IMG/VR virus record: IMGVR_UViG_3300021387_001709
Coordinates: 32,001-96,000 of that record
Strand: one strand, 5' to 3'
Length of the DNA stretch: 64,000 bases
Origin: a virus
Lineage: Duplodnaviria > Caudoviricetes
Positions within the stretch are counted from its first letter, which is position 1, and every line of letters begins with the position of its first letter. The translations under genes and the position numbers were made by a program. This document shows, piece by piece, positions 39,420 to 59,875 of the stretch. The notes under the pieces were generated by a model. The model saw only the letters and a program-made list of their open reading frames with translations. It ran no database searches and had not been told where the DNA came from.

Positions 39420-42400
39420 TCAGTGTCCTGCCTTGCGCATATCTTTGCTCATTTCTTTTGTAGTATAGTTATATATATTCTTTTTAAATGAGGCATTGCT
39501 CATCAATCCCTTTGCTATTTCTTCAAGCTGCGGAATAATGGATTGATCGGCATTACCGTCTATTTTTATTAAGTTATCATAATGTATATTAATACTCTGA
39601 TTGGTATTATGACTAACATTGTACTCTGGTACTTGGAAATTCGGTGTTTGGACCGGAACCATACCGGATTTTGCCATTTCCATAAGGTTAGCCGTAAGAT
39701 CTGCAGGAATTACTCCGTCACCGGCTTTTAATGGCATAAGCATTACGCCGCGACGTGTAACTATTGCCTCTGAACCATTTTCATTAATCCTATGCAAACC
39801 CGGTTTTGCGTTCTTTGTTCCTTTTGCGTACCCATCTTCAAGTATCTCTTCTACCGGGGCCTCTCTAAGCACAAACCCTTTTCGGAATATATCTCTGATA
39901 TCCCCAACATCTTCCCGGATTTTCTGAGCTTGATTCTGGATATTGTTTTGGTATGCATATTCTTCCTTGGAAAGATTATCGTCATAATGAGGGACATAAC
40001 TGGTTATACCGCCGGGTCTTCTGAGTTCATTGTACTCGAGATTCTTCCCTTTTGTCCACCCAGTTTGAATATTGATAGCATCCGCTACCTAATCAATTTC
40101 TTCCATTCCTAATTGCCCCGCATAAGCGTCTGGATGGAATGATTTAATATAAGCATTGAATGAGTTATCAACATTTTCTAACTGAGAAGAAAGATTGTTT
40201 ACGGAGTCTTTTACAAGTTCTATAGCATCGTCGAGGTTAACAGCCAGATCTTTTACATATTTTTCGAAGTTCTCCTAAAGCTATGTTTGAAGATCTGTTA
40301 ATCCTTCAACTCGAAGATTGACTATGTGTTCTTTTACAGTATCGTCAAGTTCTTCTTGCATTTCCGCACGTTGTGCTTCGAGACGTGCCTTTTGAGCGCG
40401 ACTCTCGGCATCAGTTAGGCCATTTAGTGCGCGGATTTGCTGCTCGATAAGCTATACATCTTTATTTTGTTTTCGTAGTTTCTTATCATAATCATAAAGC
40501 TCTTTGCGTTTATTCAACTCGTTCTTTCTGGCATCAATTAGCTTGTTAATATAAGTAATTTCTGTTTGATACCTGTCGGTTATGTTCTTAATAATGGTTT
40601 GTCTTTGCGATGCTAAAGTAGCCAATACATCTCTGCCTTGCGCCTCGAGTTCATTTTTACGCTTCGTATATTCTTCAAGGCTGTATGACTCATCAGACCC
40701 AAACAAATCATTATTCTATCTTATTGCGGCGGCTATATAAGTATATTCGTCTTGCGCTTCCTTATAAGCGCGTAAATCCATGGCGTATTTATCAATTCCA
40801 AGCTGAGTAAACACACCGTCGGTTGTATACATCATATCTGGGCTGATTAATCCCTTGAATTGCTCTGTTGCTTTATGCAGCGTTGCGAACTGATTAATTA
40901 CATTATCAATTGCCTTGAAGTAGACGTCCTCACGAAGTGCGTCCTATACTTCTCCGATATCTATCTCTAAATCGACTATCTCTTTGCTCGTATTGTTAAT
41001 TTCTGTCTGCATTTTCTTCCATTCTTCGCTGCCTTCAATGATTCTACCGGATGATACTGCATTGGCTAATTCGTCGGTAAGTGCTCGCCTCTGATTATAT
41101 AATGCAGAGCGCATGTCTTTTATTTGCTGAATCTCTTCGCCATAGCTATCTACAACTCGCTGAGCATCCGATCCTTTATTTATCTTCATAACCGGCTTAT
41201 TTTTTGTAGAAGTATTAAAAGTAACACCTCTAAGCATACCTTTTTCGCGGTTAACTGTGTTTCCGGCGTATCCACGTTCCTACCACAATTTACGAGTTTG
41301 AGTTGTTATACTTCTAAGCCCATCAATATAATCTATTGTAGCTTCATACCAGTTTTTAATATTCTCAAATCTTTCTTGCGCAATCTTTTGTTCTCGTTCG
41401 GCTGTTTCAAGTGCAGCTTGATTGAGTTCTTCTTTCATTTTGGACTCTTGATCTTTTGCCTGAGTGAGGGCAGTAGTAACATTTTCTAATGATACCACAC
41501 TATTATTCCACAATGCGGCTACATGAGCCAACGCATTAGAAACTTTTGTCGGGTCTATCTTTTGCCCTTTTTTCATAGCTTCATCAATGATAGCTTTTTC
41601 GGCTTTTGTTGCGGCTTGGTACGCTTTGTCGCTCTTGATACTCTTTGCCCTATCAGTCTATGCTTTCTGAAGTTTTGCACGTTGTGCTTCGAACTCATCG
41701 GTGACACTTTCTTGTTCTCGTAATGCTTTTAATCGTTCCTATAGCTATTTCTTCATTTGTTTTAATTCTTCTTCTAGGTATTTATTCTGGGTTCTAAATG
41801 TCGGCACTTTTGAGTCCGCCGAAGCATCCGCGTCCATAAGAACTTTTGCCTAATCAGAAATTCTCTGTTGTTCTGTTGCCACTGCCTTTTTATCAATCTC
41901 ATTTTGCTTTTTAGCACTTTCCCAATTAGACCTTGCATTATTCTATGCCGCTTTTGCCGCAGCTTGTTTGGCAATTTTATTATTATAATCATTTACCAGA
42001 TCTTTAAAATGATTACCCATCCAACTTTGATGTTCAATACGTTTACCCTGCGATATTAATTTAAGAACCCAGTTTTTATCCTTTGCCTTTACATTGTTCT
42101 TGTTCATGAATTGCTTAATATTATTAATGGATGTCTTGGTCATCGATTGACGTTTTTCATAGTCGGATTTTTTTGTTTCATATGTATTCCATCTGGTGCT
42201 TCTCGCAGTCGCGGATTTATTTTCGACTTTCTTTTTCTCCGCGACACCCGTTGCAAGATCTATCATTCGTTGTGCCGACGCAATGCCGGATCTGCCGCTG
42301 GATATCGCACTTGTTATTCCGGTGATAGTATTAATTCTATTTTCAACTTTCTCTAATGCCTGCTCAAGCTTTTCGGTCGGTAGCTGAATAATCTGGTCTT

Positions 42401-45400
42401 GTAGTTCTCGCATTGTATTTGCTAATTCTTGAATTGCAGTATTTGCTTCACGAGCTTTATTAATATAATCAAGGTAAGCCCGTGCGCCTTCAACAAGTGC
42501 GGCATCGTCCGGATTAGTTGTATCAATAATATCAAGGTTATACTCTCCGGCCAATAATTTTTCTCTATTGAATTTAGTCCAAATATTTGCAGTCTTTTTA
42601 TTTCCGTCTTTATCGGCATAAGAGTAATTAGTTGCCAATTGCTCTGCGAAATTTGCATATGTTGTAGCGGCGTGAGAGTTAGCTTTAATTTCATCCTAAA
42701 TAGCTGTAATTTCTTTGCGGAGAAGTTTTCCTTTAGTTACTTTATTTACGTAGTCGGTAATCTTATCGGCAAAATATTTTGTTTTGTCCGCGAAATACTG
42801 AAGGCGAATTTCCACATAATCAAAGATTTCCTATGAAAACTGCGGTTTATCTTCCTCTTGCGGTTTTTCATCTCCGCCGGTGCCTGCGTTTCCGCCACCG
42901 GTGCTTGCTGTTTGAGTACCGCTACCAACGTTTACGTTGTTGTTATTTCCGCTAACACTAACTCCGGATTGTCCACCACCGCCGCCGGTCCATGTAAATG
43001 TTCCACCGCCTCCGGGAAAGGCATTCGTTAATTTAGATAATCTGTCAATTGTCCCATAAGCATAACCTCTGGCAGAACCAATAACTTTACCAATTCCGCC
43101 GTTCATACCGCTGAGTATTGCCCTAAGCTATGAATTGTTGAAAATTATATCTCCGGATTTTAACTGCATAAAATGAGCGCCGCCAGGAATAATACTGAAT
43201 TTACCGTCTCGTACTAATCCCTCCGGACCAATTTCTCCTACTAAAGCAGTTTGATCTTCTTTTAGCGCAATATCTCCCTTTGCATGAGAATCATATTCTT
43301 CATCTTTCAGAATACCTTTATCCGTTATCGTCCCTTTTGCAAATGTCTTTGATATATTATTTAAAGTTCCGGTTGCTCTGGCAACTGATTGAACAGTACC
43401 GGTAGCACCAGATTTAGTTTTCCCGCCGCCTCCTGACTAGACCGTATTAACATGGATTGTTGCTGTCATGGCATTGATTCTCGACACAGCGGCATGAGCA
43501 GCAAGCAATGCATTGCCGGTTGCAGCACCGACATGTATCATTGGATTTAATCCTTCAATAGTATTTGCAGCAGAACGAGCAGCAAGAATAGCATTTCCGG
43601 TCGCAGCTTCTACATGCATTGTCGGAGTCATTCCGTCAATTGTACTCTTTGCTCTGTTAGCGGAAGCAATCGCTTTGTCTGTTTTTGCTTCGACTTTCAT
43701 TTCCGGTTTCATGGAATCTATTTCTTCTTTTACCGAATCAACCTAATCCAACGCCTCTTCTGGATTAACTTTAATATCAATTGGATCGGTGTCTCTGATA
43801 CCATCAATTGCAGTTTTTAACGATTCAATCTATGAGGTAGCGCTATCAATATTTAATTTGACTGGAATATTAGATGCTTCAGCTTTTAATGCATTAAGAG
43901 CAGTGGTAGCAGCATTGGTATCAAGTGACGCTGACGTGGAGGATGTCTACTTATTGCCACCACTAAGAAAATTAGAAACAGCACTAATTGCGCCTCCCAC
44001 GGCGTTTTTAGCTTTCTGAATTACTTCAACTATAGTAACTTTTTTTGTCGCTGGTTTCTCCGCCTCCGCTTGAACTTCATCCTAACCAGTAGCTTCAAGT
44101 TTAACTTCCTTTGTGTACTCCTCGCCATTAATCGCAGCACTAACAGCTTCATTAATCCCCTAGAGAGAACCCTCATCTAATCTTACGGGCATAGATATTT
44201 CTTTTCCGTCGAGAGAATCTATCATTGCTTCGGCGGTTTCAACATCAGATGTATCTATATTTAGAGTGGCATCAAGAGTTCCATCATTCATCGATTGCTA
44301 TAATTCTTCTAATGAACCTCCGTCTTCAAGATACTGTTCTATTGCAACTCGCACGTTATACTCCTACTGGGTCTTTGCTTCAAGCTATTCAAGCTATGCG
44401 AGTGCTTCTTGACCGCCTTCTTCTTCAACATTTATTTGAGCCTTCATCTAGTCTATTTCAGCTAATTTATTCGAAAGTTCGTCCACGCTCATTGTCGCAG
44501 CATCAAATTGAGTTGCTCCCTCAAATTGAGTACCTTTAAATAATGCCTCCACCTTATCGGTAGCAACAGTAGCACTATCGCTAAATTGATTCATACTGTC
44601 GATTGCTCCGGCAAAATCAATTACGCCTAAAGCGGCGAGGATGTTCACCAACTATTCGCCCTAAGCAGAAGATAAGTTTGCTTCTTTAGCAATACCCTCA
44701 AGGGCATCCTCAGCAGCTTCGAGTCCCTTAACATTATAGTCTCCATCTCCCAGCTTAATCTATTTGAGTTCATCATACGATATCCCTTTAAGAGCGTCCG
44801 CATATTCCATAACCGCATCTTTTGCGTTCTGAATTTTAGTTTTGCCTGCTTCAAATGCGGAGAACTCAGCGGTGTGTGGGTCTATTCCAAATGCTTCAGC
44901 GCCAAGAGGAGACTCCCACGAACCAATTTTACCCTCGAGGTCTTTCATAGCGGCATTATAAGATGCTTCATCAACCTCGAAGTCAGCATTTACTTTAATT
45001 CCATAATCATCGGCTAAATCTTGTGCCTCACGGAGAAAACGATTTGCGCTTGCTTCGTCACCGCGCTCCATTGCATCATCATAATATGATTTAAGGTCTG
45101 CAATACTACTCTTGAGATTCTTAAGGTTGCTTACGTATTCCTATGCTTGTCCTCGCTAGAAATTTTGAGTAGCTGTCTGTACGGCATTCAGCTATCCTTG
45201 ATACTGATCAATGACATCCTACTGAATCGCCAAATCATCGGCGCTTGCGCCTTCACGCTTCATTTCGGCATATTTAAGCTATGCATTGGTAAGCTCATTA
45301 GTCCATTTCTATGTCTGAAGTTGAGCGTCTTCCATGGAGGAAACGAACGCACCCATTCCGCCATATTCTTCGGCTTTGCCAAACATGTCACGGAACCATT

Positions 45401-48400
45401 CTTCGCCAGCTCCAAATTGATGGGCGGCCTTGGCTAAATCAGTAAAGTTCATTACCAGACCTTGGGTACCGTCTTCATAAGTTTCAAGAGTAGCCATACC
45501 GGCACTCTGTAAATCCATCATGAATTTATGTACGCCCTGGATATCATCGGTCATATATTTAGAGAATTTATCATAGTTCTGTTTGAATCGCGTCGGGTCG
45601 GATAAGCCCCATTCGTCAAAATAAGCGGCACGAGTTTTGTAATCGTCCGTGCCAATCAGACCTTTATCCCACATTTCTTTTGCTTCTTTGAGATAATTCA
45701 TTGCCTTGTCATAATTTGCACCTTGATTCACGGTTTGATCCGCAAGTGCAATTTGACCATGCTGTGAGAACTGCTCCATAAGCTACTGGTATGCGGCAAA
45801 TACTTGCGATTGTTGTTGCTGAAGATCTGCAAGGTCTTGTTTCAGCTTGTTAATACCAGCAGTATTTATATCACCGCTTGCATTTTCCATGCGATTAAGT
45901 GCTTCGGTAGTTTGATTGATTTTTGTTGTTAAATCATTGTTAGATAATTCATACTCTTGTTGCGCGAGACGCTGTAACTCAACAACATTAGCTTTAACAC
46001 CGTCAGTTGTATTATAGAATACACTGGATAAATCAGCAGAAGAGCCTAAATCACTGAATGCGGTAGATATTGCTTTGATTGTATCCGGAGTTATACCGGT
46101 GGGAGTAGCCATTTCTGAGAATGCGGACTGGATAGCAGAAGAGAGGTCTTGCGCTTGAGTAAGTAATAAATTACGAGCCTGATCATCATAACCATATGCG
46201 TCAGCAAGTGCTTGCACCATGGATGATTCGTTTTGGCGGATTTGATTAAGTGTATCTTGGTATTCTTGTTTGTTATTTCTAAGCGCAGGAAGTTGATTCC
46301 TCAATTCTCTGTTTTGGTCTGATAAATTCTTTGCTTGCTGTCTGGATAAAGTCGCAAGATTTTTGTATTCTTTTTCGTTAGCTTTGATACCTTTCGCCTA
46401 GTTTACGGTAATTTCATCATTAATTGCAGAAGCTTGGTCTTGGATGTTTGTCATCTAATTTTGTAATACATTAAGATGAGATTCTGCTTCATTGTACATT
46501 GGGGAAGTGTATTTCTGGAGACCGGATATAACTTCTTCAGCATCTAAGGCTTCCTAGTACATGCTTGCTGACTACTCAAGATCATATATATCTGATTTTG
46601 GATTTCCATATCTTTGAGCAAGATCAAGGGCGTCAGACATAATAGATTCCTAAATTCCAATCTGTTCTTTTGCATTATTCGCCTATAACTTTGCAAGATT
46701 ATGAGAAATATATTCTCCTCTGTTTTCAATATCGGTGCGTTCTTTTTGTAACTAATCTCCGTTAGCTTTGGAAGTGGCATAATCCGTTTTTAGATTATTT
46801 AAATCTGTTTGCGCATTTTCTTTTCTGGTTTCTATCATTTCTGTTTCCGTGCTTGAAATATTTGCCAGAGCCTCTCTATAATCAGCTAATGCTTTATCAT
46901 ATGCTACCTAATCACGTCTATCAGCCGCTTTATTCATCCTTCCAAGTGCGGTATTAGCCTTATCGTGATATGCCTAAATATCTGATTCATATAATGGCAT
47001 GACACTATTATTAAGTTCTTCCTCAGTTAAACGTTCGCCTTTTGCTTGACGGTTCTCATTTCTTGCATTTATTAAGTTTCGCTTTTGTTCATTTTTCTCT
47101 AAAACGGCTTCGGCTTCACGGTCTTTAATAATCAAATCCCATTCAATCTTTTTATGATTATACTCAGCTAAAATTTGCTATAATGTTGATTCTGCCGTAA
47201 TCGTACCATCAAGCGTCAATTCCCAAAGAACATTATAATTAAGTTCTTCGCCGTTCTATGAGAGAGCAGTTAATACATCATTATATTTCTATTCATTAAG
47301 ATGAGAACCTGTCTAATCTGTATATGAAAACGTTTCTTTTAAACTGTTTTTTGCTGTTTCGGCAGAAACAGAAAGGTTGTCATAAGATTCAATTAAATTA
47401 TCAATATATGCCTGTGATGCTCTTGCAGCTTCCGGTGTGAGAGGCCCTTTATCAGCCTATACTTTTTTAAACTCTTTGATATATTCCGATAACTATTTAA
47501 CCGCAGCGTTATTAATGCCTTCAAATGAAAAATCATCCATACTTGGCATAGCATCTTGCAAATTTTTCATTTCTTCTGCTGTAAGTTTACCGTTTTCACG
47601 GTAAGACTCTAGTGCATTATTCAGTGATGATAAATTAGATTCATACTGTGATGCACTTTTTGAAAAATCTTCGTCATTGAGAATATCCGCAAGAGTACCA
47701 GTTCCAGCTTCTTCTTTAATCTAGGATAACTGGTTCAAATATTCTCTGAGGGATTCAATTGTATTGCCAACAAAATTAAAGTTTTGATTGTTCATCGCTG
47801 TCTGGGCAATTCTTTGTTCTTTTTGCGTTAAACTCTGTATATCATCCCAAGATATCTTGCTTTTGCCTTGTTTATAGACATTTTTACCATTAGCATCTTG
47901 AGTTACCTCGCCGCCAAGTCTTTCGAATATAGCAGCCCGAGTGTCAGTAGCATTCCAATGAGTATTACCATTTTCATCTTCGTCTTCGTACTTATATCCA
48001 AGAGATACAAGAATCCATTGTTTTATTTTATAATCTTCTGTACCTTCTCCACCCGGAAAAATTTCATTAAGAGTTTCATTTATCTATTGTCGCATTTCCT
48101 CATTTGTAGCGTTGTCAAAATCAAAATCAAATATTTTTTGCATATCTATAGTGTCAACGTCACCGTTTTGCAAAGATCTTTCTATTGGGGCTATAATTCT
48201 ATTTTTTAATTTTTCATCAAAATTATCTCCGCCACCTAACTAGTCAAATAATGCGTCATAATTAAAATCTATACTATTTAACATAGTTTCGATTCCAGAT
48301 TGTATTTGCTCTGGCATACGTAAATAAGCTGGATCCGTCTCTAACATATCCATAAAATTAGGTAAAAATTTTGAAATCCAATTACTCTATTTACTCTTAT

Positions 48401-51400
48401 TTAACGCATCTACTGTACTCTAAGTAGCGTTTATTCTATCAGCTAAATCATTCTAAAAAGCAGTATAAACATCTTGTACCTTAGAAATATTATCTTTATT
48501 TACCTCAATCACGCCGGTGACATCATATATTTTTGAATATTCCAGACCGGCTTCTTCCATCATAGAAATAAAGGCATTTTCCGCATCTTCTTGCCCTTTA
48601 AAATTAAAAATATTTCCTTCTCTCTGTCTCCCGGTTTCTATCGGCTACTAAGCCTAAGTTAAAAGCCGCTTATATGTATCTATAGCATTCTATTGTTCTT
48701 GTATTTCCTCGTCTAAAGTTTTATTGGTTTCTTCTATATTCCCAATAATATCCGGCATTCTTTCTTTTAATGCGTTTGCGTTCATTCTGTTTTGTGCTTC
48801 AATTAAAGCGTTTAAACTATCCGTAGCTTGCTAAGCATTCTTACCTAAATCAACTAACGATTGCCCACTATCCGTTACACCGGTTTTTAAGGACGGAAAT
48901 GTATCGGCAAGCTATTGATTAATGGCTAAAAATTCCTCATAGTCATCAGTGGAAAGAGAAAGATTTTTAATTTGATTCCCATTCATATAAACTCCACTAC
49001 GGAGCTCATTATATCTATCTTTTGCTTTCGTACCAACTTTATTAATATTGTCTGTTTGTTCCCTTATCTCTCTAGACTCAGTAAGAGCCTCTTCTCCCTT
49101 TTTAATTTTATTTTCTCTTTCGTGAATTTTATTATCAATTATATTAAATAAGCCAGAAACAACCCCAGTAACAAGCATAGACAACCCAGCTGTGGCGGCA
49201 AAAGATGCAATGCTTGTAACGGCATTCCCTAAAAACCCTCCAACACCACCGAGAAGTGTAGTACTTTTTCCTATTTTTGATATCATTTCCGTAACACTGG
49301 CAGTTTCTACGTTTAATCCTCTCATATTAGTAAGTAAATCGCGGACGTCTTCTGTAGCATTTTTTAATGATCCACCTAGCGGAGAAACCGTATCCCAACC
49401 AATCGCGTCCTTAAATAAAACGTCCTAAGAACCCGTTGGGATTAGCGTTTGTAAATACTTTATAGCATCTTTTCCTCTTTGAGAATTGGCCGTAAAAATA
49501 CTTCTAAAAGCCGTGGCAATACTCCCAGACGCATCGTAACCATTAGTGAATTTTGTCATCTAATCTTTTATAATTCTTCCAAATTCCCAGTCTCCCATAC
49601 CGTTTTTACGGAACAATCCGTTTCCGGTAAACTGAAGGAATCCACCGATTCCGGCTCCGAGAATTCCGCTAAGTCCGCCGAATGCGTCTACTAATTGCGT
49701 AACCACTTCAACTGCGGAAGTGCCGAGATCAATGATATCTTTAAGCCATTCGCTGTCAATTGTTACTGTTGCTAATTGTTGTAATCTATTTTGAAGCTAT
49801 GCCATTTTCCCTTCTACAGAATCTAACTATGCATTAAGTTCGTTTTGTGCCGACCCTTGTGAGTTCATTAGGGAGTCTTGATAGACGCTCTTTAAGAGTT
49901 CAGGGTTACTGAGCAGCGAGGATGCTGCAGCCGCCCTTGTTTTCGGAATATTGCACAAATTACGCAACAATTTGTGATTATATTTTGGTTAATTTATACA
50001 GTCAAAATATAACTCTTACACTTTCGCGTAAGTCTAGACCATTTTTTAACCCACGACTTAACGTTTGGGTCACACCTTTTCGAACACCATTTGCGATTGT
50101 GTTCTACTCCTAAAGATTCAGATATTCAGGATTTCCACCTTTATTTTATAACTAATATGTATAATAGCATTAGTATTTCTGAATCCCAACACGGGGATGG
50201 TCGTTGAACCTTTACCCTCGACTTAACTGTTTGTATGGTGTACAAATAACGTTAGGGTACTTGGATGCGAATTAGCCACGTATCTTTAAATTATTATCCT
50301 CTCATAATCTGATTTCTCAATTATTGTAGTATAAAGCTTTAGGCATTCAACGCATTTAAATGTGTTCTATAAATATGTTTCCATATTTTCAGGCAAAATT
50401 TACCTCAATTATGTTAAACATGGTTCACAACACCATGTGATTCGTAATAAACGAATCTCTTACACTTTCATGCAAGTTCTGACCATTTCTTCACCCTCAG
50501 CATCATCTGTTAGGGGCATACCTTTTTGGTGTACCATAAGTTTGTACCCTACGATTATTCATAATCTGGTCGATGAACGTTCACCAATGTATAATACAAA
50601 ATATACATACAGGTGCTTCGATGCAAGAACAGCCAATCTTTATGTTATAAAACCATCATAATATATTTTCATTATTATTGTGGTATAAAGCTCTAAGGCA
50701 TTACCTGCAATTAGATATGTTCTTTATATATATTTCTATATATTGTGGCAAGCCGTTTGCCACCGTTTCAAGTAATAGCGACTATCTATTGGTGCCCAGT
50801 TTCTTATCTTCCTCGCCGATTTCCTTAAATACTTCGGCGATACCGAGCATACGCTCATAAGTTGTTTTGTAAGTACCGTCATCATTAAGTATATCAAAAC
50901 CTTTATATCCGTTTGATTGCACTTTTGTCGCGTCAAGAATCGTCTGTCGCAGCTTCGATTGTGTAGTAATTAAACCATCGATTTCTTCGCCGGCTTCTTG
51001 CATATCCTCAACAGATGTTCCACTCAATCTCAGTGAGATTGTCTTAAGGGATTGACCAACCGTGAGAGGATCTTGAAGCACGGCGTTAGCAGCAGTAGTA
51101 AGAGCTACAGCTTCGTCAAATGAATCGCCTGTAACTTGTAATGTACCAGCAGATTTCTGAAGTGACTCAGCTAACTCTGACGTACTGATTGCGTAGTTAT
51201 TCAAGCTGTTACTTTCGGATAATTATTATCCTACTGACCATTTAATAAATGGCGCATAGTCGTTTCCGGCTATGTCTATGCCTTCATTTATTCGCATAGT
51301 TCAGACTGTATATTACATCCCTCACCAAATAGGAGAGTAGGATGGATAGCTTCAATACATATGTTACCATATATATCCCGCAGTCGTTACGGTACAACGA

Positions 51401-54400
51401 AATAGACATCGTCTTACCTCGGTATCACCCTCTGTGGGCTTCTACCGATATAGCTATCTATAGTTGTATTTACTACAACCTAACATATTACTATGTTATT
51501 AGGCAAAATCTACCTATATAATTTAACTTGTCGATGATTTCCGATTTGTCAAGATCTTTATACGCTTGGCTCATTGCAACAAGAGATTCTGTTGCCGCAT
51601 TAATATCCTAAAATTCAGATATGTTAAGCAAAATACTTGACTGCTCCGCACTTTTTTGTGCTTGTTCAAATGATTCACCAAGCCTTAACCAGTCAGCGGT
51701 ACTTTCTTGGATTTGCTTAGATGTTGTTCCGACACGATCGGCAGCCTCAAAACTTCCATGTTGCGCGAAATCTTTAAGAACACTAAGTGGTTCATCAGAC
51801 ACTTTTCGCATTTCCGTAAGAGCAGTATCAAGTTCTCTAACGATATTAACGCCTTGTTTAGCAATATTGATCACTTCATACAAATCTGCGTATGTAAGTA
51901 AATATCTCGCCATTCCCTTGAACGAACCTTTAAGGGTCTCTCCAAATGATTTACCGACATCGCCGGCTTCTGTCGCCTGGGTTTTTATCCGCTCGAATGC
52001 AGCAGCGATTTCGTTAAGATTACCGTCGGACACACCATTTATTGCGTCTTGAAGGTTTTGAATTTGTGGGAAGTATTCGGTAGCAGCAGAATTTTTGTAC
52101 ATCCATTCTTCCATACGACGTTTAAGTGTGGCGGCGTCTTTTTCATCGGCGAGAGAGTAGTACCCACCACCTGCGCGTTGAACAGCTTCATTCAATCTAC
52201 CTCTAAAAGATAATACCTAATCCTAAATTTGATTACGTCTATCAGGCGAAGCTTTTTCATATTCTTCAGATGTTTTAACCAAATTTTCAAATTCATCATT
52301 TAAATCTTGTAAAACCTTAACTCCATCTTCGTTCCAATTACCTTTGCCTAATTTTTGGAGTACTTCGCCCATTTCTTCGAGAGTATCAGTAAATGCGGAC
52401 GTAGATGCGTTGCTCATAGCACTATCGAATTGCTACATTAGCTATTTTAATGAGTCTGATGCCTCACCCTATGCCAAAGCAAAAAGACCGGTTTTTTTAA
52501 TCGCATCATCATAAAAGTTACTATATCTATTTAAAAAAGCCTACTCCGAGTAATCTAACATCTGACCATTCGACTACTTCTATTTTATTTGCGCATAGCG
52601 TTCCGCGTATTTAATAAGTGTTTGATATCCACGCTCAACATTTTCAAATTCATAATTCTCATTATCATTAAATGCAGACATTCCTGATTTTAAAACGTCC
52701 ACATCTTCCATTTTTTGTCTATAATCATCAAGTATTGAATCGGGAACTGTCCAAGTCCCACCTTGATTTAGTTTATTAAGCGTAGCATATGCGTCCTCCG
52801 CCCCCTAGCGAAGTTTTTCCATAGTATCTACGGCTCGTTGAAGTTGATTGGCGTTAATCTCTCCAAGGTTATATAAATCCTACGCATTGGACGCTCGCTC
52901 AGCAGCGTCATGGTATTTCTGTATCTTATCCATTTGTTTGCTTGTAAATTTAGCTTCTTGCTAAACGATAGCCTTGGTTAAATCCTCCTAGGATTTCTAA
53001 GACCCTTCCTTTGACACATTATATTTATCTAAAGCCGAAGACGCCTACTCCTCCGTGATTTTCGCCTCGTTTCTCATTTCAATTATCTTTTGTTTGGCCG
53101 TATCCGCGGCTTTTCCCGCATCCTCCAATACTTTAACAATAGCCCTTTCTTGATCACCGGAAACAGCTTGTCCTTTTGCCTAGTCTGTTAACATTTTATT
53201 AAACTAATTTCGGGCTTCAATCGCGTCTTCAATAATTTTTACTTGCTAATTATACTCCTTCATATTCTCATCGGCTTCTTTTTTATCTTGCGCGGCTTTT
53301 ATCGCATCTCTGGATTTTGCACTACCGCCACTTTCAGCTTTTTCTAAATCATTAATGGCTTTGTTATATTGATCTTCTGTAATATCGTCTTTAATTTGAC
53401 CAAGTTTTTCCCTAACGTTGACCGCTTTTTCAAGTGCCTATTCTAATCGCTACACAGCTTCAGCCCATTCATTTGTTTTTTTTATTTCAGGATCGGTCTC
53501 TGATTTTGCAATGAGTTTATTCATTTCTGTTTGTGCTTTAAACAACTCATCAATTATTTTCGTTTGTTCTTTATAAGTTGCGTCAACATCATCAGTTTTC
53601 GCCTTCTATTTAGCTCCTTCTAACTTCGCTTCAGAATCGGTAATCTTTTTTATTCCCGTGGCCATAACTTTATTAGCGTCAATATATTGCTACTCAGTTA
53701 TAGCTCCTTGTTTTCGAAGTTCATTCAAGGTTTTGTTTGATTGTATAAGATTGTCTGTAGCTTTTTTTTCTCGTTCTATCGCTAACGTCATCTAATCGTT
53801 GGAAACAAATTTGCCAGCTTCTTGATCAGCTTTAAGCTTATTAAGTTCCGATACGGCATCTCCGTATTCACGAATGGCTTGCATTGCTTCTTTATATTGG
53901 TTTTTAACATTTTGGTCAAATTCGTCTTGTTGCGCTTTGCCCTATGCCTCATAACGCTTACGCCCCATATTATATTCGGTGTTACGCGCTTTTTGGTATT
54001 GCTATTCTCCCATAGCAATTGCCATAGCATCTGATAATTGTTCTTTATATTCTGCATCTACGTCCTTAAAACGTTGCTGAATAGATCTTAACTTATTATT
54101 AAATTCTTCTAGGTCTTTAGATTTAAGATCGGAACCGATATTATCTTCAAGATTACGCAGTTCACTTTCTAATCCTAAAGTATCTGCATTAGACTTCTAC
54201 ATCTTACGCATAGTACTATGTATATCAGTAACTAATTTATCTTTGGCAGCTGTTATGCTATATGGGTTAAACTGAGTGTTTGCTTTCTAATCTTTTATAG
54301 ATTGTTGTGCTTTTCTTTTATATTCATTAATTGCGACGCCTAATTCTTCCTTAATAGTCTTAGGCATTTCTTTCCCAGCATATGCGTCAAAATAATCCGC

Positions 54401-57400
54401 AAATATTTTATCATACATTTCTTTAAGAGCTGTTTTATCCGAATCCGCCAAATCAACTCCCGCATTATCGACATATTTCGCCTTTATATTATTAAGGTTT
54501 CCTCTTTGTCTGGCTATAAGAGCGTCAGTATTTTCAATAGACTTATTTCGCTTTTCATTTTGTCTAAATTCTCTTTCTTCATCTTGTTGTTTAAATTTTG
54601 CATCAAGAATTTTTTTGCTCTCCATTACTCTTGATTCAAAATCATTGACCTAATCTGAACCAGGCAAATACCCCGCACTTTTATAGTACCCATACAATTC
54701 ATCATTCATTCTACTATAGACATCATAATATAACCCTAACTGAGTCTCTAATCCATCGGTATTTTTTCCTTGCTCTCTGGCGACTTTTATATCATGGTCT
54801 AGAGTAAAAACTTTATTCGCAATTTTTATTACTTGGTCTTCGAGTGTTTTATAATTTGTAGAAGTAGTAGTGGATTCAAATTCATTACCGTCTTCGTCGC
54901 GCATTATTCTGGTAGTTTCTTTTTCGCCATAGCCCAATCTTCTAGTATACGATGTCCTTTCGCCATCAACTTTTGTTTCTCCAGTATATACACCTTTTCG
55001 ATCATCAGAAGTATCACCTTGCTGAGTTACCTCAGATATAGCATCTGAATTTCTCTTAGCAGCTTTACCTTCATTATCAAGACCTTTTGTCGCTTTCTTT
55101 GTGGCATCGGCGGTTTCTTCGCCAGACTCGGCAACTTTTCGGTTAGCTTCTTCAAATTTCTTCTTTTTTATTTCAGAAACCTCGGCGGCTTCACCTTCGT
55201 TCGTTATCTCCCTGGTGGCGTCCCGAAGCGGTTTAGTTCCATCGGTTGTGTTTTTCGTAATTTTTGCCGAAGACTCAGATAATAATTCATTTAAATGTTG
55301 TTGATCATCAGCTGATTTTTTAATATAACTTAGAAAATCATCTTTGCTAGATGGGGGATTGGATAAATATTCGTAAAGCTATGACAATGCACCCTGTGTA
55401 TTAGTAGAAGTATCAAAGATATGTCCAAAAGACTCATTTATCTCTTCCAAAAATGATATTGCATCTGAACCTTTTTTAGTTGATAAAGTACCAATACCAA
55501 TAGTTCCAAGAATGTTGTTCCAGTTATCACCAAATTCTTCTCGGTCACCTTTAGAGATTCGTATTTTATTAGATGATACAAAACTTCTAATTTGTTTCCA
55601 TAATTTCATATCACCCTATGATTCAATTACTCCGCTATCCCTAGAAAGAATATCAAACAGATTATCATAAGTTGGTATTTCACCGTTCGCGGTTTCAACC
55701 AAAAGATTTCGAACTTCATTTTTTAATTGTCCAAATATTTTAGTGGACTTTACACCAAATTCATCACGAATGGCAGACGCTACCCTAGTCGTTTCTTTTT
55801 CTAAGTTTTGTTCATCAATTATAATATCGTCTATAGGCGACTCACTTGGCATACTTTTATCCCACATATTAGATATTTCATTAAAAGTATATCCGAGTTC
55901 TTTTGCTTTAGAATTAAATTGATCTATCGCATCTGTAAACGGAAGATCTTTTTCCGTAACCTCAAATTCCAAATCGTCTACTATAGACTACAAACTTTTT
56001 GGGGCCAACTTGGTCATATTTTCAAATTTCTAATGCGGCAAAATATCCTCGCCATTTTGTGAAATTTTCTTCCAGGCCCCAGATATTTCATCAAAAGCAT
56101 ATCCAACCGACTCAGCAAATTTTCTAACAGCCTCTTCACCTTTAATAGACTCCTTGGTTATTTGATCTAAGAAAGCACCATATCCGTCCGGAAGTTCATC
56201 CTCCGCCATTCCCATAGCATCTAAAATAGGCTTTGTTCCCTCTGTGAATTTCAATATTTCACCATTTACACGACCATTTCTTTCACGTTCTGTTACAAGT
56301 TCTTCCTATCTTTGAGCTATATGAGATTTAAACTCGTCCATTGCCGCATCATATTCTTTTTGCCCAGTAGCAACGTCGGCTATTAACTGATTTACAAAAT
56401 CTTGATTTGCATCGGAATATCCCTCTATGGAACGGATATCTTTTCCGAAAGTAAGACGTTTGTCGTCTGGGATGACACCTTGTGAAACTGGAGTTTCATT
56501 TTGCCGCATCTTTTTTTGATATTCTTGAAGAGAAAATTCAAAATGTTTATAATAATCATCTTTATTAAATGCATCGTCAAGATATGGTTTATGACCAATT
56601 ATGTCCTAAACAAAATTTTCATCTATATTTCCATCTTGCATATCTGCAATTATTTTAGAAATATCTCCATCTTTTAATTCTTTAAGTAAATCAACATATT
56701 TTTGAAAATTATCAATACTCCATTTATCGCTTAATGTTTTCTATAGTACTTCTAGTTCATTTTCTGGCAAATTTAATGAACTAAACATTTCGCGAATTTC
56801 ATTAGACGACTTTTCAAATGCATCGTTAATTGAATTTCCAGCGATATCAGCGTTCTATGGAATCTCAACACCAAAAATATCACAAATCTACTTTAATAAA
56901 CTTTCAAAGTTTTGACCTACCGTTACATTTAACAAATCACTCTAAATCTATTTTATTTTTTGCGCAGCGTCAATTGTCTTTGTAATCTATTCGCCAGCCT
57001 ATCCAGGTTTTAAAGATAATTTATTTACTGTGATAGTTTCTTGATTAACTCCTTCTCCAAGATTTATTAATTTATTTACCAAATCAACGGTATTTTGCGC
57101 ACCAGCATTAATCTAATCGAACTGTGTATTAAAAATTTTAGATAACGAATCGGACGGAGAAGAATTACTTGTAAATCTTAATGTAGCTATCTTTGTTAAT
57201 ATTCCATATAACTATTCATATCTCACAGTATTCTAATTAATATCGGTATCCGATGAAATCGGACTTCCATCGGAATCTCCAGCTTTATGGTTTTCATTAT
57301 CTATAGCATCGGCCGCCTCTTCAATCTTTTCCGCCGTTTCTTTCCCAGATTCAGCAACCTTTTCTTTATTAACTTTTGCGAATTCTTCTTTATATGGGAT

Positions 57401-59875
57401 TGCCTCTTTGGCGGACTCGCCCTCAGTTTTTATTGCGTTTGCGCCTTCCTAAAGAGAAGAGAAGTCAATAGAAGAGATAGTAGATTTGAACGTCGCAATA
57501 GATTTATTTAACTCATCAAAATTACTAGTAATGCTTTCCCAATTAATACTTGATAATATAGAATCATTACCACCTAAACTAAAAGCATTCTATATAGCCT
57601 CCCCCATTTTTTCGGCGTTCTCAGCAACTTTTTGCATTGTTTCATTAAGTTGCTCAAGAAATGATGGCGCTTTTGCGTCTTTCGGAAGAAGCCCCTTTGA
57701 CAATACACTATGCAAATTGCCTATTGCATCTGTAAATAATTGGATTTGTTGTGTGTATTCTTTTACGGAATCGGGTTGCCCAATTTCATCATCGGCTTTT
57801 ATTTTGGTCTGACTCAACGTTTCAAGTAGCTGGTCTTTTAACTTCTGTTTATCTTCAGGAGACTTTGTAATTTCGGCCTTTTCACGAATTCTTTTACTTA
57901 TATATTTGAAATCCGTTGCTGGAAAATTCAATTCCAACATTTGATCCCAAAATAAGTTTTCCCCTTTTCCGACACTTTCAGCGGTTCTCTATATAGAAGA
58001 GATGAATGCCATTATTTGTTTAATTTGGGTCTTTGAGTCAGGTAAAAGTTTAATTCTATCTGGATTAAACTATTCAACGAACTCCTAAACATTAGGGAAC
58101 GCTTCCAAAAACCCGGAACTTCTTGGTGACTATGCCATAATATTTGCTAAAAGCTATATGTCACTAACATCTCCACCAAGCATACCTTCATCTTTTAATG
58201 ATAATTTATATTTGTTTACGACGTCTAATATATTTTTATATGCCGCCTAATATCTTTCTGCCTAATTTAACCATTCTGTTTCTATATTTGCCTCAATTGC
58301 CGCGTCCGCTACATCGTCTTTAACATGCACATTAAACTATTGTTCTTTTCTTGATGTGGTTCTCGAAAAATCCCACATTTCTCTATTAAGTTGTAATAAA
58401 GATTTCTGATTATTTCTAGCTTTTTGGTTAGTGCCTTCTCCAAATCTACCTATGGCATCAGATACCTGATTAACCACGGACAACAAAGACTAAAACTAAC
58501 TAATTAACGGTTCTATTCCAGCGTCGGTATCTATTCGACCAAATGCAGAACTAATATTTGTTATTTCCGTATTTAAATTTTCTAGTATATTAATCAACTA
58601 TTGAATGTTTTCCGTATTCCAAGACGTGGAATCGCCACTCGTAGCATGAATTTCTGAAGACATCTTTTCTTTTTTTTTATTAATATTTTCTATATGTTCC
58701 TCGGTATCATTTAAAGCCTATTCTGTTTCATCTATATTTGGCACTTTTATTTTTGAAAAATCAAAATCATTAATAGCCTATTTAATATCATTAAGTGCAT
58801 TTTTAAGTTCATTTAATGCGTTTGTTGCGGAAGTTATCTGTCGCTCATCAATTTTAAATGTTAGTCCATTACCATCTTCTCCGAGAGCCTCCAAGGACTA
58901 CGAAACTTTATCTATAATATTTTGAAATTTCTAAAACGTTCCGTCATCTTGAAACGCTTTCTTAATTTTGCCAATAGAATCGGCTACGCCGGATTCGGTC
59001 TCACCCTCAACTCTATCAGCCATCTGTTTGGATGCCTCTAACTCCCTCTCAAGTTCTGCTCGCTGCTATTTTAATGATTTAACCTAGGCCTTATTTATTT
59101 CATCTGGATTTCTTCCAAGATTCTATAAATTTTTATTTCTAACGTCAACCAGTCTAGCCTATATGTCTTTATAGTTTTCAAAAATACCGGAATCTTTAAT
59201 TATTCTGTTATCTGGGTTTAAAGCAGTTCTTAATTTTTTAGTAATATCAAATATTATTTGAGAAAAATCTTTATCGTCAAACCCTATTAACTAACTCAAG
59301 TCTCCGCCTTGACCAAGATATTTAAATAAATTATCAATATAACCACGTAAATCACTTGCATTTTCCTTAGAAAATAACCCGTCCAATCGAACATTTGATG
59401 TAGCAAGCTATTTTATCTTTTTATACCCTTGACTATTAGAATCGAGTAAATCTCTTTGTATTTTTCTAAAATTATTTTTTGCCTAGTTAGCATTTTTAAT
59501 TTGTTGATTTATATTATCAATATCAAAACCGATTACTTCCTCTGGTCTAACAGTCGTTTTCCCAGCTATTTGATTAACGGTTTTCCCAACGTTTTCTAAA
59601 TTGCTCTATACTTCTCGAAGAGAATTACTAAGCTCATCCATCCCCGCAACGTTTAAACCAAATAAATCTTCACCGTTCTGTCCTTTATACATCTTTGTCA
59701 CATTTTTAATTGCGGATTCAATATCTTTAATTGAGTCTAATATTTTTGATATATCTATATCTGCATTAAATTTAATTGGTTTTTTAGCTCTTCTTTCCAA
59801 TTCATCTATTTTTTTAGTGCCACTATCATCAACTTCAACTTTCAACGGCACAATCACGGTTTCGGTTTCTTTCAT
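39420..59875 (-). CDS. Giant tape-measure protein (~6,444 aa), exons 59875-51512, 51201-50759, 50405-50402, 49943-39420; TAG=Gln
   Basis: Ten track ORFs in exon 1 and twelve in exon 4 share one frame each; TP901-type core (ELDTALTEMRKVS, IIDKLNYIG|NNYAIST, LKTISLRL, VA|G|KTRA); C-terminal HAKG/YAKG motifs; upstream of Dit/Tal. Confidence 0.85.
49944..50401 (-). ncRNA. Group I intron 3 of TMP (458 nt, no ORF)
   Basis: 5' exon ends in U; IGS TTTTGCCTG; P7 pair GACCAT (near 50197) / ATGGTC (near 50040); terminal G before AAA ACA AGG. Confidence 0.85.
50402..50405 (-). other. 4-nt micro-exon AGGT of TMP
   Basis: Restores GTG GC|A GGT|AAA = V-A-G-K and the frame; flanked by the omega-G of intron 2 and the IGS-bearing start of intron 3. 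Confidence 0.75.
50406..50758 (-). ncRNA. Group I intron 2 of TMP (353 nt, no ORF)
   Basis: P1 GTGGC/GCCAC; AATTGCAGGTAA P element; TCATCGACCAG (R) and AAGAAATGGTCAG (S); terminal G. Confidence 0.8.
51202..51511 (-). ncRNA. Group I intron 1 of TMP (310 nt, no ORF)
   Basis: Exon ends TAGGT pairing IGS GCCTA; CGTAACGACTG (R) and AATATACAGTCTG (S); terminal G; splicing gives KLNYIG-NNYAIS. Confidence 0.88.

What the first reader, a model, noticed from the sequence alone, without database searches (positions are those of the whole stretch)
49944..50758. Twin group I introns around a 4-nt micro-exon, with pairing that predicts ordered splicing
Seen: between TMP ...LLETV and KTRAAA... lie two complete group I cores (two R/S pairs, each with a P7 helix). 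They are separated by ...ATAATTG|AGGT|AAATTTTGCCTG. Joining GTG GC + AGGT + AAA ACA rebuilds V-A-G-K-T-R and the frame (443+4 = 447 nt). The intron 2 guide (GCTT) can form P10 with AGGT. The intron 3 guide GCCTG makes a 5-bp P1 with CAGGT, which exists only after intron 2 is removed; unspliced GAGGT gives 4 bp plus a G-G mismatch. Inference: intron 2 inserted inside intron 3's P1 target, creating a sequential ribozyme relay that gates an essential virion gene. I do not know of a described phage micro-exon this short.
Basis: partly seen in the sequence, partly recalled or inferred. Interest (0 to 1): 0.92.

Follow-up and report, generated by a model that had tools for sequence, protein, structure and literature searches.

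The report
Two phage introns, 4-base exon
A giant tail tape-measure gene of an uncultured, TAG-recoded phage is interrupted by two separate self-splicing group I introns only four bases apart; the four-base exon is real, a layout known from mitochondria but, as far as I could find, not described in phages.

Summary
Intron 2 is 50758..50406 (353 nt). The micro-exon AGGT is 50405..50402. Intron 3 is 50401..49944 (458 nt). Each intron gives a full-length RF00028 match (E 2.6e-8 and 2.8e-6), though both score below Rfam's cut-off.

The 4-nt exon is supported by comparison:
- 77 of 80 related loci have no intron here and carry exactly six bases ([A/S]-G) between ET[IV] and K.
- One 99%-identical relative has intron 2 only.
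- At least six lineages have an intron-3 homologue only.
- A second metagenomic variant carries both introns with the same AGGT.

Guide-sequence covariation shows that intron 3's P1 is five pairs, CNGGU/GCCNG. The predicted gain on removing intron 2 is only about 1.5 kcal/mol, so ordered splicing remains a hypothesis. The order in which the two introns arrived is unresolved. No RNA data could be obtained.

Intron 2 uses a C-G pair, not U-G, at its cleavage site. This is backed by compensatory changes in four lineages.

Micro-exons of 1-3 nt between organellar introns are already known, so this is a new variant of a known kind.

The parts
51512..59875 (-). Exon 1 of the giant tape-measure-like gene (2788 codons, 69 in-frame TAG). 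Its end matches Pfam PhageMin_Tail profile positions 3-85.
51202..51511 (-). Intron 1 (310 nt, no ORF). The 5' exon ends ATAGGT, the guide is UUUUGCCUA, and the intron ends in G before AATAAC. It splits NYIG|NNYAIS, which is contiguous in relative L001. It is a paralogue of intron 3.
50759..51201 (-). Exon 2 (443 nt: 147 codons plus GC). It matches PhageMin_Tail profile positions 87-192 and ends ...LLLETV + GC.
50406..50758 (-). Intron 2 (353 nt, no ORF), a group I intron with RF00028 40.8 bits, E 2.6e-8. Its last base, G at 50406, is the omega-G.
50745..50763 (-). P1 hairpin of intron 2. GUGGC|AA (50763..50757) pairs with the guide UUGCCAC (50751..50745). The cleavage-site pair is C50759-G50749, not U-G. 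U50750, U50751, C50752 and G50753 can form a 4-bp P10 with the micro-exon.
50479..50577 (-). Intron 2 core: the two P7 strands (GACC within 50577..50566, GGUC within 50488..50479), with P3' and P8 between them.
50419..50476 (-). Intron 2 P9 (50476..50459), P9.1 (50457..50439) and P9.2 (50437..50419) hairpins. In variant L190 the P9.1 loop holds a 1578-nt ORF cassette.
50402..50405 (-). Micro-exon AGGT. It supplies the third base of the Ala codon and the whole Gly codon of V-A-G-K. It is the complete P10 partner of intron 2 and four of the five P1 partners of intron 3.
49944..50401 (-). Intron 3 (458 nt, no ORF), a group I intron with RF00028 34.1 bits, E 2.8e-6. It has a canonical U-G at the 5' splice site and an omega-G at 49944.
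50390..50399 (-). Guide of intron 3. UUUU can pair with the first bases (AAAA) of exon 4 as P10. GCCUG (50394..50390) pairs with AGGU, and G50390 pairs with C50759 only after intron 2 is removed.
50015..50208 (-). Intron 3 core: the P7 strands (GACC within 50208..50197, GGUC within 50044..50034), P3', P8 and P9 (50032..50015).
39420..49943 (-). Exon 4 (3507 codons plus stop, 67 in-frame TAG), starting KTRAAAASSLLSNP. The first 57 nt are only 54% identical to L001, although 18 of 19 residues agree.

Best explanation
Two independent, ORF-less group I introns from two different families sit 4 nt apart in the conserved PhageMin_Tail core of a 6444-codon, TAG-recoded tape-measure-like gene. Each intron has its own P1 guide, catalytic core and terminal G. 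Removing both joins GTGGC + AGGT + AAAACA and restores the conserved ...ETV-A-G-K-TR... reading frame.

The four exon bases are claimed by both ribozymes. They are the whole P10 partner of intron 2 and four of the five P1 partners of intron 3. The two introns therefore cannot use them at the same moment and must act one after the other, but either order gives the same mRNA. Intron 2 first is mildly favoured: it is transcribed first, and its removal adds a C-G pair to intron 3's P1. It is not required.

The layout arose because two mobile intron families, each also found with endonuclease-like ORFs in relatives, target neighbouring positions of the same conserved AGK motif.

Shown: boundaries, homology, polymorphism, guide covariation. 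Inferred: that both introns self-splice, the sequential action, and the preferred order.
For: - Two complete RF00028 matches on the coding strand.
- Pfam PhageMin_Tail is split exactly at the intron boundaries.
- 77 of 80 IMG/VR relatives have exactly 6 nt ([A/S]-G) between V147 and K. 110 of 150 representative homologues read AGK there.
- L001 has 99% exon-2 identity and intron 2 at the same site, followed directly by AGGAAAAACG (VAGKTR), with no intron 3.
- Intron-3 homologues occur alone after GCAGGT or GCTGGT in L018, L089/L091, L112/L234, L245, L246 and L247, with a compensatory A-U to U-A change in L018.
- 30 of 150 representative clusters end in read-through of such an intron after AG.
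- Intron-2 homologues occur after the GC of the Ala codon in L019, L123 and L124, with guides that co-vary: GUGGC/GCCAC, UCGC/GCGA, UGGC/GCCA, CUUGC/GCAAG.
- L190, from a different assembly, carries intron 2 with a 1578-nt ORF cassette, then AGGT, then intron 3, and is 100% identical in the flanks.
Against:
- Both introns score below Rfam's gathering threshold.
- Intron 2 lacks the near-universal U-G wobble at its cleavage site, which in model ribozymes slows the reaction (my knowledge, not tested here).
- Self-splicing may need host or phage factors.
Confidence: 0.88

Rival explanations
1. Obligatory ordered relay. Intron 3 cannot react until intron 2 is removed, because only then is its 5-bp P1 complete. 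Intron 2, slowed by its C-G cleavage-site pair, would then gate production of the full-length tape-measure protein.
For: The C(-5)-G pair of intron 3's P1 is conserved or compensated in seven lineages and matches the target in paralogue intron 1. In the window that C lies across intron 2. The omega-G of intron 2 directly abuts intron 3's P1, so both cores cannot dock on it at once (sequence; inference).
Against: The predicted P1 hairpin is already -5.8 kcal/mol unspliced, against -7.3 after intron 2 removal, partly because UU/AA pairs flank the G-G mismatch. Intron 3 has the canonical U-G and could well be the faster of the two. If intron 3 goes first, the product is the same substrate that L001's intron 2 handles naturally. 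There is no sign of co-adaptation: intron 2's 3' end and intron 3's guide are the same as in genomes carrying only one of them.
Confidence: 0.2
2. The pair behaves as one composite (tandem twintron-like) unit, or exon skipping is the main outcome. The 5' splice site of intron 2 is joined to the 3' splice site of intron 3, dropping AGGT and giving a frameshifted N-terminal product of about 2950 residues.
For: Exon skipping by phage group I introns has been reported (Twort orf142, cited in PMC11878797; 47% skipping in a SIOphi gene, PMC11878797). Tandem group I modules that splice as a unit are known in fungal mitochondria (PMC12308204). The two introns share identical P7 strands and similar P9.
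Against: Skipping gives GTGGC+AAAACA, which is out of frame and stops after about 18 codons. The 3507-codon exon 4 is kept open, and the A-G spacing is invariant in homologues. The productive pathway must therefore keep AGGT. Skipping can only be a by-product.
Confidence: 0.07
3. Artefact or decay: a chimeric assembly, or a dead gene in which one or both introns no longer splice.
For: The genome is a metagenome-assembled record. Both introns score below the Rfam cut-off.
Against: The same junction (intron 2 end, AGGT, intron 3 start) is found in an independent contig that carries a different (ORF-bearing) form of intron 2. 19.3 kb of exon sequence stays open apart from TAG. Both introns keep P1, P7 and the terminal G.
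Confidence: 0.03

Closest known systems
Placozoan mitochondrial cox1: a single-nucleotide micro-exon between two group IB introns (Osigus et al. 2017, PMC5436844)
   Same: Two separate, complete group I introns flank a tiny exon that restores a conserved codon. It is explained by a second intron inserting next to a resident one. It had been missed before because the pair looked like one intron.
   Different: It is an organelle of an animal, not a phage. The exon is 1 nt, not 4 nt, and it was proven by RNA-seq. There the micro-exon is too short to carry a guide-pairing segment. Here it carries the full P10 of one intron and most of the P1 of the other.
Fungal mitochondrial mini-exons and tandem or side-by-side twintrons (3-nt mini-exon in Podospora cited in PMC8971849; cox3-640, cob-201 and rnl-576/577 in Ophiostoma, PMC12308204)
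   Same: Neighbouring mobile introns pile up at conserved sites and leave exons of 1-18 nt. Whether the modules splice in sequence or as a unit is the key question there as well.
   Different: Some of those tandems splice as one unit. Here excision as a unit would frameshift the gene. Those are organellar genes, often with LAGLIDADG or GIY-YIG ORFs. Here both introns lack ORFs.
Multi-intron phage genes: Twort orf142 (three group I introns, exon skipping; Landthaler and Shub 1999, from memory and as cited in PMC11878797), and Bastillevirinae polymerase, TerL and nrd genes (PMC11878797)
   Same: Several group I introns in one phage gene, including a structural gene. A 'small exon between two introns' was seen in phiNIT1, and exon skipping is documented.
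   Different: No 4-nt exon is reported in what I could read, and the size of the phiNIT1 small exon is not given in the text held. Those phages use the standard code. Here the gene is TAG-recoded, and the upstream intron uses a C-G pair at its cleavage site.
Rfam RF00028 (group I catalytic intron), phage-type members such as T4 td/nrdB/sunY (subgroup assignment is from memory and not tested)
   Same: Full-length alignment to the model. P1 with an internal guide, P3-P9 with a P7 helix, a terminal G, and insertion at a conserved coding site.
   Different: Scores of 40.8 and 34.1 bits are below the family's 50-bit cut-off. Both introns have large peripheral insertions. Intron 2 lacks the U-G wobble.

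Membership tests
Group I intron (RF00028): intron 2 | Conserved core P3-P9 with a P7 helix that aligns to the family model | tested here: inconclusive
   Full-length match to model positions 1-253 with E 2.6e-8, but 40.8 bits is below the curated 50-bit cut-off. A paralogue in L001 scores 70.1 bits, above the cut-off.
Group I intron (RF00028): intron 2 | P1 helix between the 5' exon end and an internal guide, with a U-G wobble at the cleavage site | tested here: not met
   P1 is present and co-varies in four lineages, but the cleavage-site pair is C-G in all of them. The paralogue at another site in L001 has the usual U-G. The helix is met; the wobble is not.
Group I intron (RF00028): intron 2 | Terminal G (omega-G) at the 3' splice site, and precise excision that restores the reading frame | tested here: met
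   The intron ends ...ATAATTG. L001 and L123 show the same site followed directly by NGG-AAA exon sequence. 77 of 80 intron-less relatives fix the junction.
Group I intron (RF00028): intron 3 | Conserved core aligning to the family model | tested here: inconclusive
   Full-length match with E 2.8e-6, but 34.1 bits is below the 50-bit cut-off. It aligns at 81% mean column identity with the L018 homologue, which scores 31.5 bits.
Group I intron (RF00028): intron 3 | P1 with a U-G wobble at the cleavage site, a terminal G, and precise excision | tested here: met
   AGGU pairs with GCCU with U-G at -1. There is a compensatory change in L018 and the terminal G is at 49944. The same site is occupied or empty in relatives.
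Group I intron: both introns | Guanosine-dependent self-splicing | not testable with these tools
Micro-exon flanked by two group I introns (placozoan cox1 type) | Two independent intron cores, and a tiny exon needed to restore a conserved codon and the frame | tested here: met
   Relatives carrying only one of the two introns prove that the introns are independent.
Micro-exon flanked by two group I introns (placozoan cox1 type) | Transcript evidence that the micro-exon is retained in the mRNA | not testable with these tools
Twintron (nested, or tandem spliced as one unit) | One intron interrupts the body of the other, or the pair is excised as a single unit | tested here: not met
   The introns lie side by side and each is complete. 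Excision as a unit would drop AGGT and frameshift the gene. The only overlap is that intron 2 sits between pairs 1 and 2 of the exon strand of intron 3's P1.

The most novel reading that the evidence does not exclude
The 4-nt exon acts as a switch shared by two ribozymes. Intron 2, slowed by its C-G cleavage-site pair, must leave first to complete intron 3's P1. The efficiency of this two-step relay, together with exon skipping, would set the ratio of the full-length 6444-residue tape-measure protein to truncated N-terminal products of about 2950 residues late in infection. That would be a ribozyme-timed control of a virion gene.
Probability: 0.12. Interest if true: 0.8.

Novelty: new variant of a known kind. 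Interest (0 to 1): 0.55.

Why it matters
- **Annotation.** Phage structural genes, here in a stop-codon-recoded gut or rumen-type phage, can hold side-by-side group I introns with exons too short for any gene caller or read aligner to see. Giant tape-measure genes of this clade will be mis-annotated unless this is known. About a fifth of the representative homologue clusters carry an intron at this same AG|K site.
- **A natural experiment.** Alleles with neither intron, one, the other or both are available. They allow a direct test of how two ribozymes share four nucleotides (P10 of one, P1 of the other) and whether order matters.
- **A side result on the cleavage site.** An intron family that keeps a C-G pair where the U-G wobble is thought to be near-universal, with compensatory changes, is a useful test case for what the wobble is really needed for.

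Tried and rejected
- **RNA evidence.** I did not try another route.
- **Default Rfam scan of the window.** It found nothing. The E-value mode was needed.
- **tblastn against deposited phages.** The only hit was a distant Brevibacillus phage TMP, with no help on the junction.
- **Guide-pattern scan of viral contigs.** It gave 23 loci. Only L103, L119 and L112 were true intron-3 relatives; the rest were chance matches.
- **Metagenome scan.** Four of the 120 matches passed my downstream-motif filter for an intron-3 relative, so the frequency of the double arrangement is not measured.
- **Alternative junctions considered and rejected.**
  - A 1-nt micro-exon (T) gives VAKTR, one residue short of all homologues.
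  - A 5' splice site after ACGGT (a U-G in a weak alternative register) gives ETVGK, also one residue short.
  - A one-base shift of intron 2's boundaries gives the same mRNA but loses the terminal G in both the window and L123.
- **Polarising the 57-nt divergent patch.** No sampled allele resembles either version.
- **Endonuclease ORF in the window's genome.** A search with the L190 intron-2 ORF found nothing.
- **Identity of the amino acid at TAG.** Alignment gave Q and E equally often. Q is assumed from known TAG-recoded phages and from TAG aligning with CAG in L002.
- **Size of the phiNIT1 'small exon'.** It was not found in the text or supplements held. The Twort paper is not held.

Full report
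**What is there.** The finding lies on the minus strand, inside a very large gene that is open only if TAG is read as a sense codon. With TAG=Q the frames 59875..51512 and 49943..39420 are open, with 69 and 67 in-frame TAG and no other stops. The genome is a 189.8-kb virus record rated 98% complete, and the window is bases 32001-96000 of it.
- The end of exon 1 matches Pfam PhageMin_Tail profile positions 3-85, and exon 2 matches positions 87-192. The gene is therefore a tape-measure-type tail protein split exactly at an intron.
- The joined exons total 6444 codons.

**The two ribozymes.** The default Rfam scan finds nothing. At the E-value threshold, three full-length RF00028 matches appear on the coding strand: 50768..50459 (40.8 bits, E 2.6e-8), 50411..50015 (34.1 bits, E 2.8e-6) and 51521..51285 (19 bits).
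- Each of the first two has its own P1, P3-P9 and a P7 helix (GACC/GGUC), and each ends in G.
  - exon 2 ends GTGGC at 50759
  - intron 2 is 50758..50406 (353 nt)
  - AGGT is 50405..50402
  - intron 3 is 50401..49944 (458 nt)
  - exon 4 starts AAAACAAGG at 49943

**Is the 4-nt exon real?** Comparative evidence is strong.
- Among 80 IMG/VR loci encoding relatives of exon 2, 77 have no intron here and carry exactly six bases between the residue aligned to V147 and the K. These read A-G in nearly all and S-G in three.
- Among 150 representatives of 50%-identity clusters, 110 read AGK at this point.
- GC + AGGT gives GCA GGT, which is A-G.
- A 1-nt exon, or a 5' splice site three bases upstream, would each lose one residue of this invariant spacing.
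- Excising both introns as one unit would shift the frame.

**Natural single-intron alleles.**
- L001 has 99% protein identity in exon 2, and its intron 2 is about 99% identical. It has intron 2 at the same position, followed directly by AGGAAAAACGCGT (V-A-G-K-T-R). It has no intron 3 and no intron 1, and it carries a different intron at LQVTG|DSF that scores 70 bits.
- Intron-3 homologues occur alone after GC[A/T]GGT in L018, L089/L091 (= L103/L119/L221/L240), L112/L234, L245, L246 and L247.
- 30 of the 150 representative proteins end about 20 residues after AG in a read-through that is the translation of such an intron's guide, P2 and P3.
- Intron-2 relatives sit after the GC of the Ala codon in L019, L123 and L124.
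- Both sites are therefore recurrent homing sites of two intron families.
- The double arrangement also occurs in L190, a contig from another assembly. There intron 2 carries a 1578-nt cassette in its P9.1 loop: an 85-codon ORF and a 454-codon ORF with five TAG that matches CapR and DUF2726. The junction ...AATTG|AGGT|AAATTTTGCC is identical. This argues against an assembly artefact.

**Pairings.** Intron 3's guide GCCUG pairs with CAGGU.
- L018 has CUGGU with GCCAG, a compensatory change at -4. All seven lineages keep C(-5)-G.
- The paralogue intron 1 has UAGGU with GCCUA.
- P1 of this family is thus five pairs. In the window, C(-5) is C50759, on the far side of intron 2.
- Intron 2's guide pairs as GUGGC/GCCAC in the window, UCGC/GCGA in L019, UGGC/GCCA in L123 and CUUGC/GCAAG in L124. 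The pair at the cleavage site is always C-G.
- The alternative one-base shift of intron 2's boundaries would lose the terminal G in both the window and L123.
- Intron 2's P10 is 5'-GCUU-3' with AGGU. It co-varies at the first position in L123 (UGGU with the matching A). P10 therefore spans exactly the micro-exon.

**Does pairing predict order?** Only weakly.
- ViennaRNA gives the P1 hairpin -5.8 kcal/mol in the unspliced context, where two U-A pairs flank the G-G mismatch. After intron 2 removal it gives -7.3 kcal/mol.
- If intron 2 goes first, it loses nothing, because its P10 lies wholly within AGGT.
- If intron 3 goes first, it lacks one of five pairs. Its product is the substrate that L001's intron 2 handles naturally.
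- The terminal G of intron 2 abuts intron 3's P1, and both guides want the same four bases. I infer that the two reactions are mutually exclusive at any one moment and hence sequential.
- Intron 2 has a head start in transcription. It also has a C-G cleavage pair, which in model ribozymes slows chemistry (my knowledge).
- I rate intron 2 first as a mild preference and an obligatory relay as unlikely (0.2).
- There is no co-adaptation. Intron 2's 3' end and intron 3's guide are the same as in single-intron genomes.

**History.**
- Intron 3's guide fits a contiguous exon. This shows only that the family evolved in alleles without intron 2.
- The closest relative has intron 2 alone. L190 and the window have both.
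- Between the window and L001, exon 2 is about 94% identical and intron 2 about 99%. The 57 nt just 3' of the intron 3 site are only 54% identical, although 18 of 19 residues agree. Identity then returns to 86-90%.
- This looks like a conversion tract tied to gain or loss of intron 3. I could not polarise it.

**Comparison with what is known.**
- Mini-exons of 3 nt and 1 nt between organellar introns are described (PMC8971849). They include a 1-nt exon between two group IB introns in placozoan cox1 that was proven by RNA-seq (PMC5436844).
- Tandem group I modules and 1-nt exons between group II introns are known in fungal mitochondria (PMC12308204).
- In phages, genes with several group I introns, a small exon between two introns, and exon skipping have been reported (PMC11878797, which also cites the Twort work).
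- My searches found no phage micro-exon of this size. This is absence in a limited library, not proof.

**Verdict.** The observation and the micro-exon are confirmed by comparison. The splicing itself, its order and any regulatory role remain untested. It is a new variant of a known kind.

Noticed in passing
window 50745-50763 (-); L019:7270-7300; L123:6150-6175; L124:478-500: The intron-2 family keeps a C-G pair, not the near-universal U-G wobble, at its 5' cleavage site. The guide changes in step with the exon in four lineages (GUGGC/GCCAC, UCGC/GCGA, UGGC/GCCA, CUUGC/GCAAG). A paralogue at another site in L001 has the normal U-G.
   Followed up: partly
window 49887-49943 (-) versus L001:3730-3786: The 57 nt immediately 3' of the intron 3 insertion site are only 54% identical to the closest relative, although 18 of 19 residues agree. 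The differences include Ser TCN/AGY and Arg AGG/CGT switches. Identity is 86-99% on both sides. This may be a co-conversion tract, or synonymous change that escapes a homing endonuclease. The direction is not resolved.
   Followed up: partly
L190:80-1657: A variant of intron 2 carries, in its P9.1 loop, an 85-codon ORF and a 454-codon ORF (CapR and DUF2726, a likely nuclease fold). The longer ORF is open only with five TAG read as sense, so the likely homing enzyme is itself recoded. Similar ORFs sit in the intron-2 relatives of L019 and L124. The window's genome has no homologue.
   Followed up: partly
window 51202-51511 (-); L001:2647-3000; L011-L013 near query residues 56-61: The roughly 150-codon PhageMin_Tail core is an intron hot spot. 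At least five different insertion sites are used among close relatives: G|N, TG|D, near residue 56-61, A^G and G|K. The subsets differ from genome to genome.
   Followed up: partly
whole genome G000 (tRNAs at 118555-165810): ARAGORN finds six tRNAs (Pro, Leu, Met, Ser, Gly, Gln-UUG) but no CUA-anticodon suppressor, although the tape-measure gene alone has 136 in-frame TAG. A weak RF00028 hit (163215-163331) lies beside the tRNA cluster, so an intron-containing or unusual suppressor tRNA may have been missed.
   Followed up: no
window 39420-59875 (-): The spliced tape-measure-like protein is 6444 residues, and homologues of 3000-5974 residues are common in this clade. Apart from the PhageMin_Tail core it has no confident Pfam match. 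Unspliced, half-spliced or exon-skipped RNAs would all stop within about 20 codons, giving N-terminal products of about 2950 residues.
   Followed up: no
L247:5378-6304; L234:1056-2204; L089: Most intron-3 relatives are 1.4-1.6 kb and carry an ORF of 308-382 codons with only faint Pfam signals (RAP, E 0.006). The window and L018 hold ORF-less forms of about 450 nt.
   Followed up: partly
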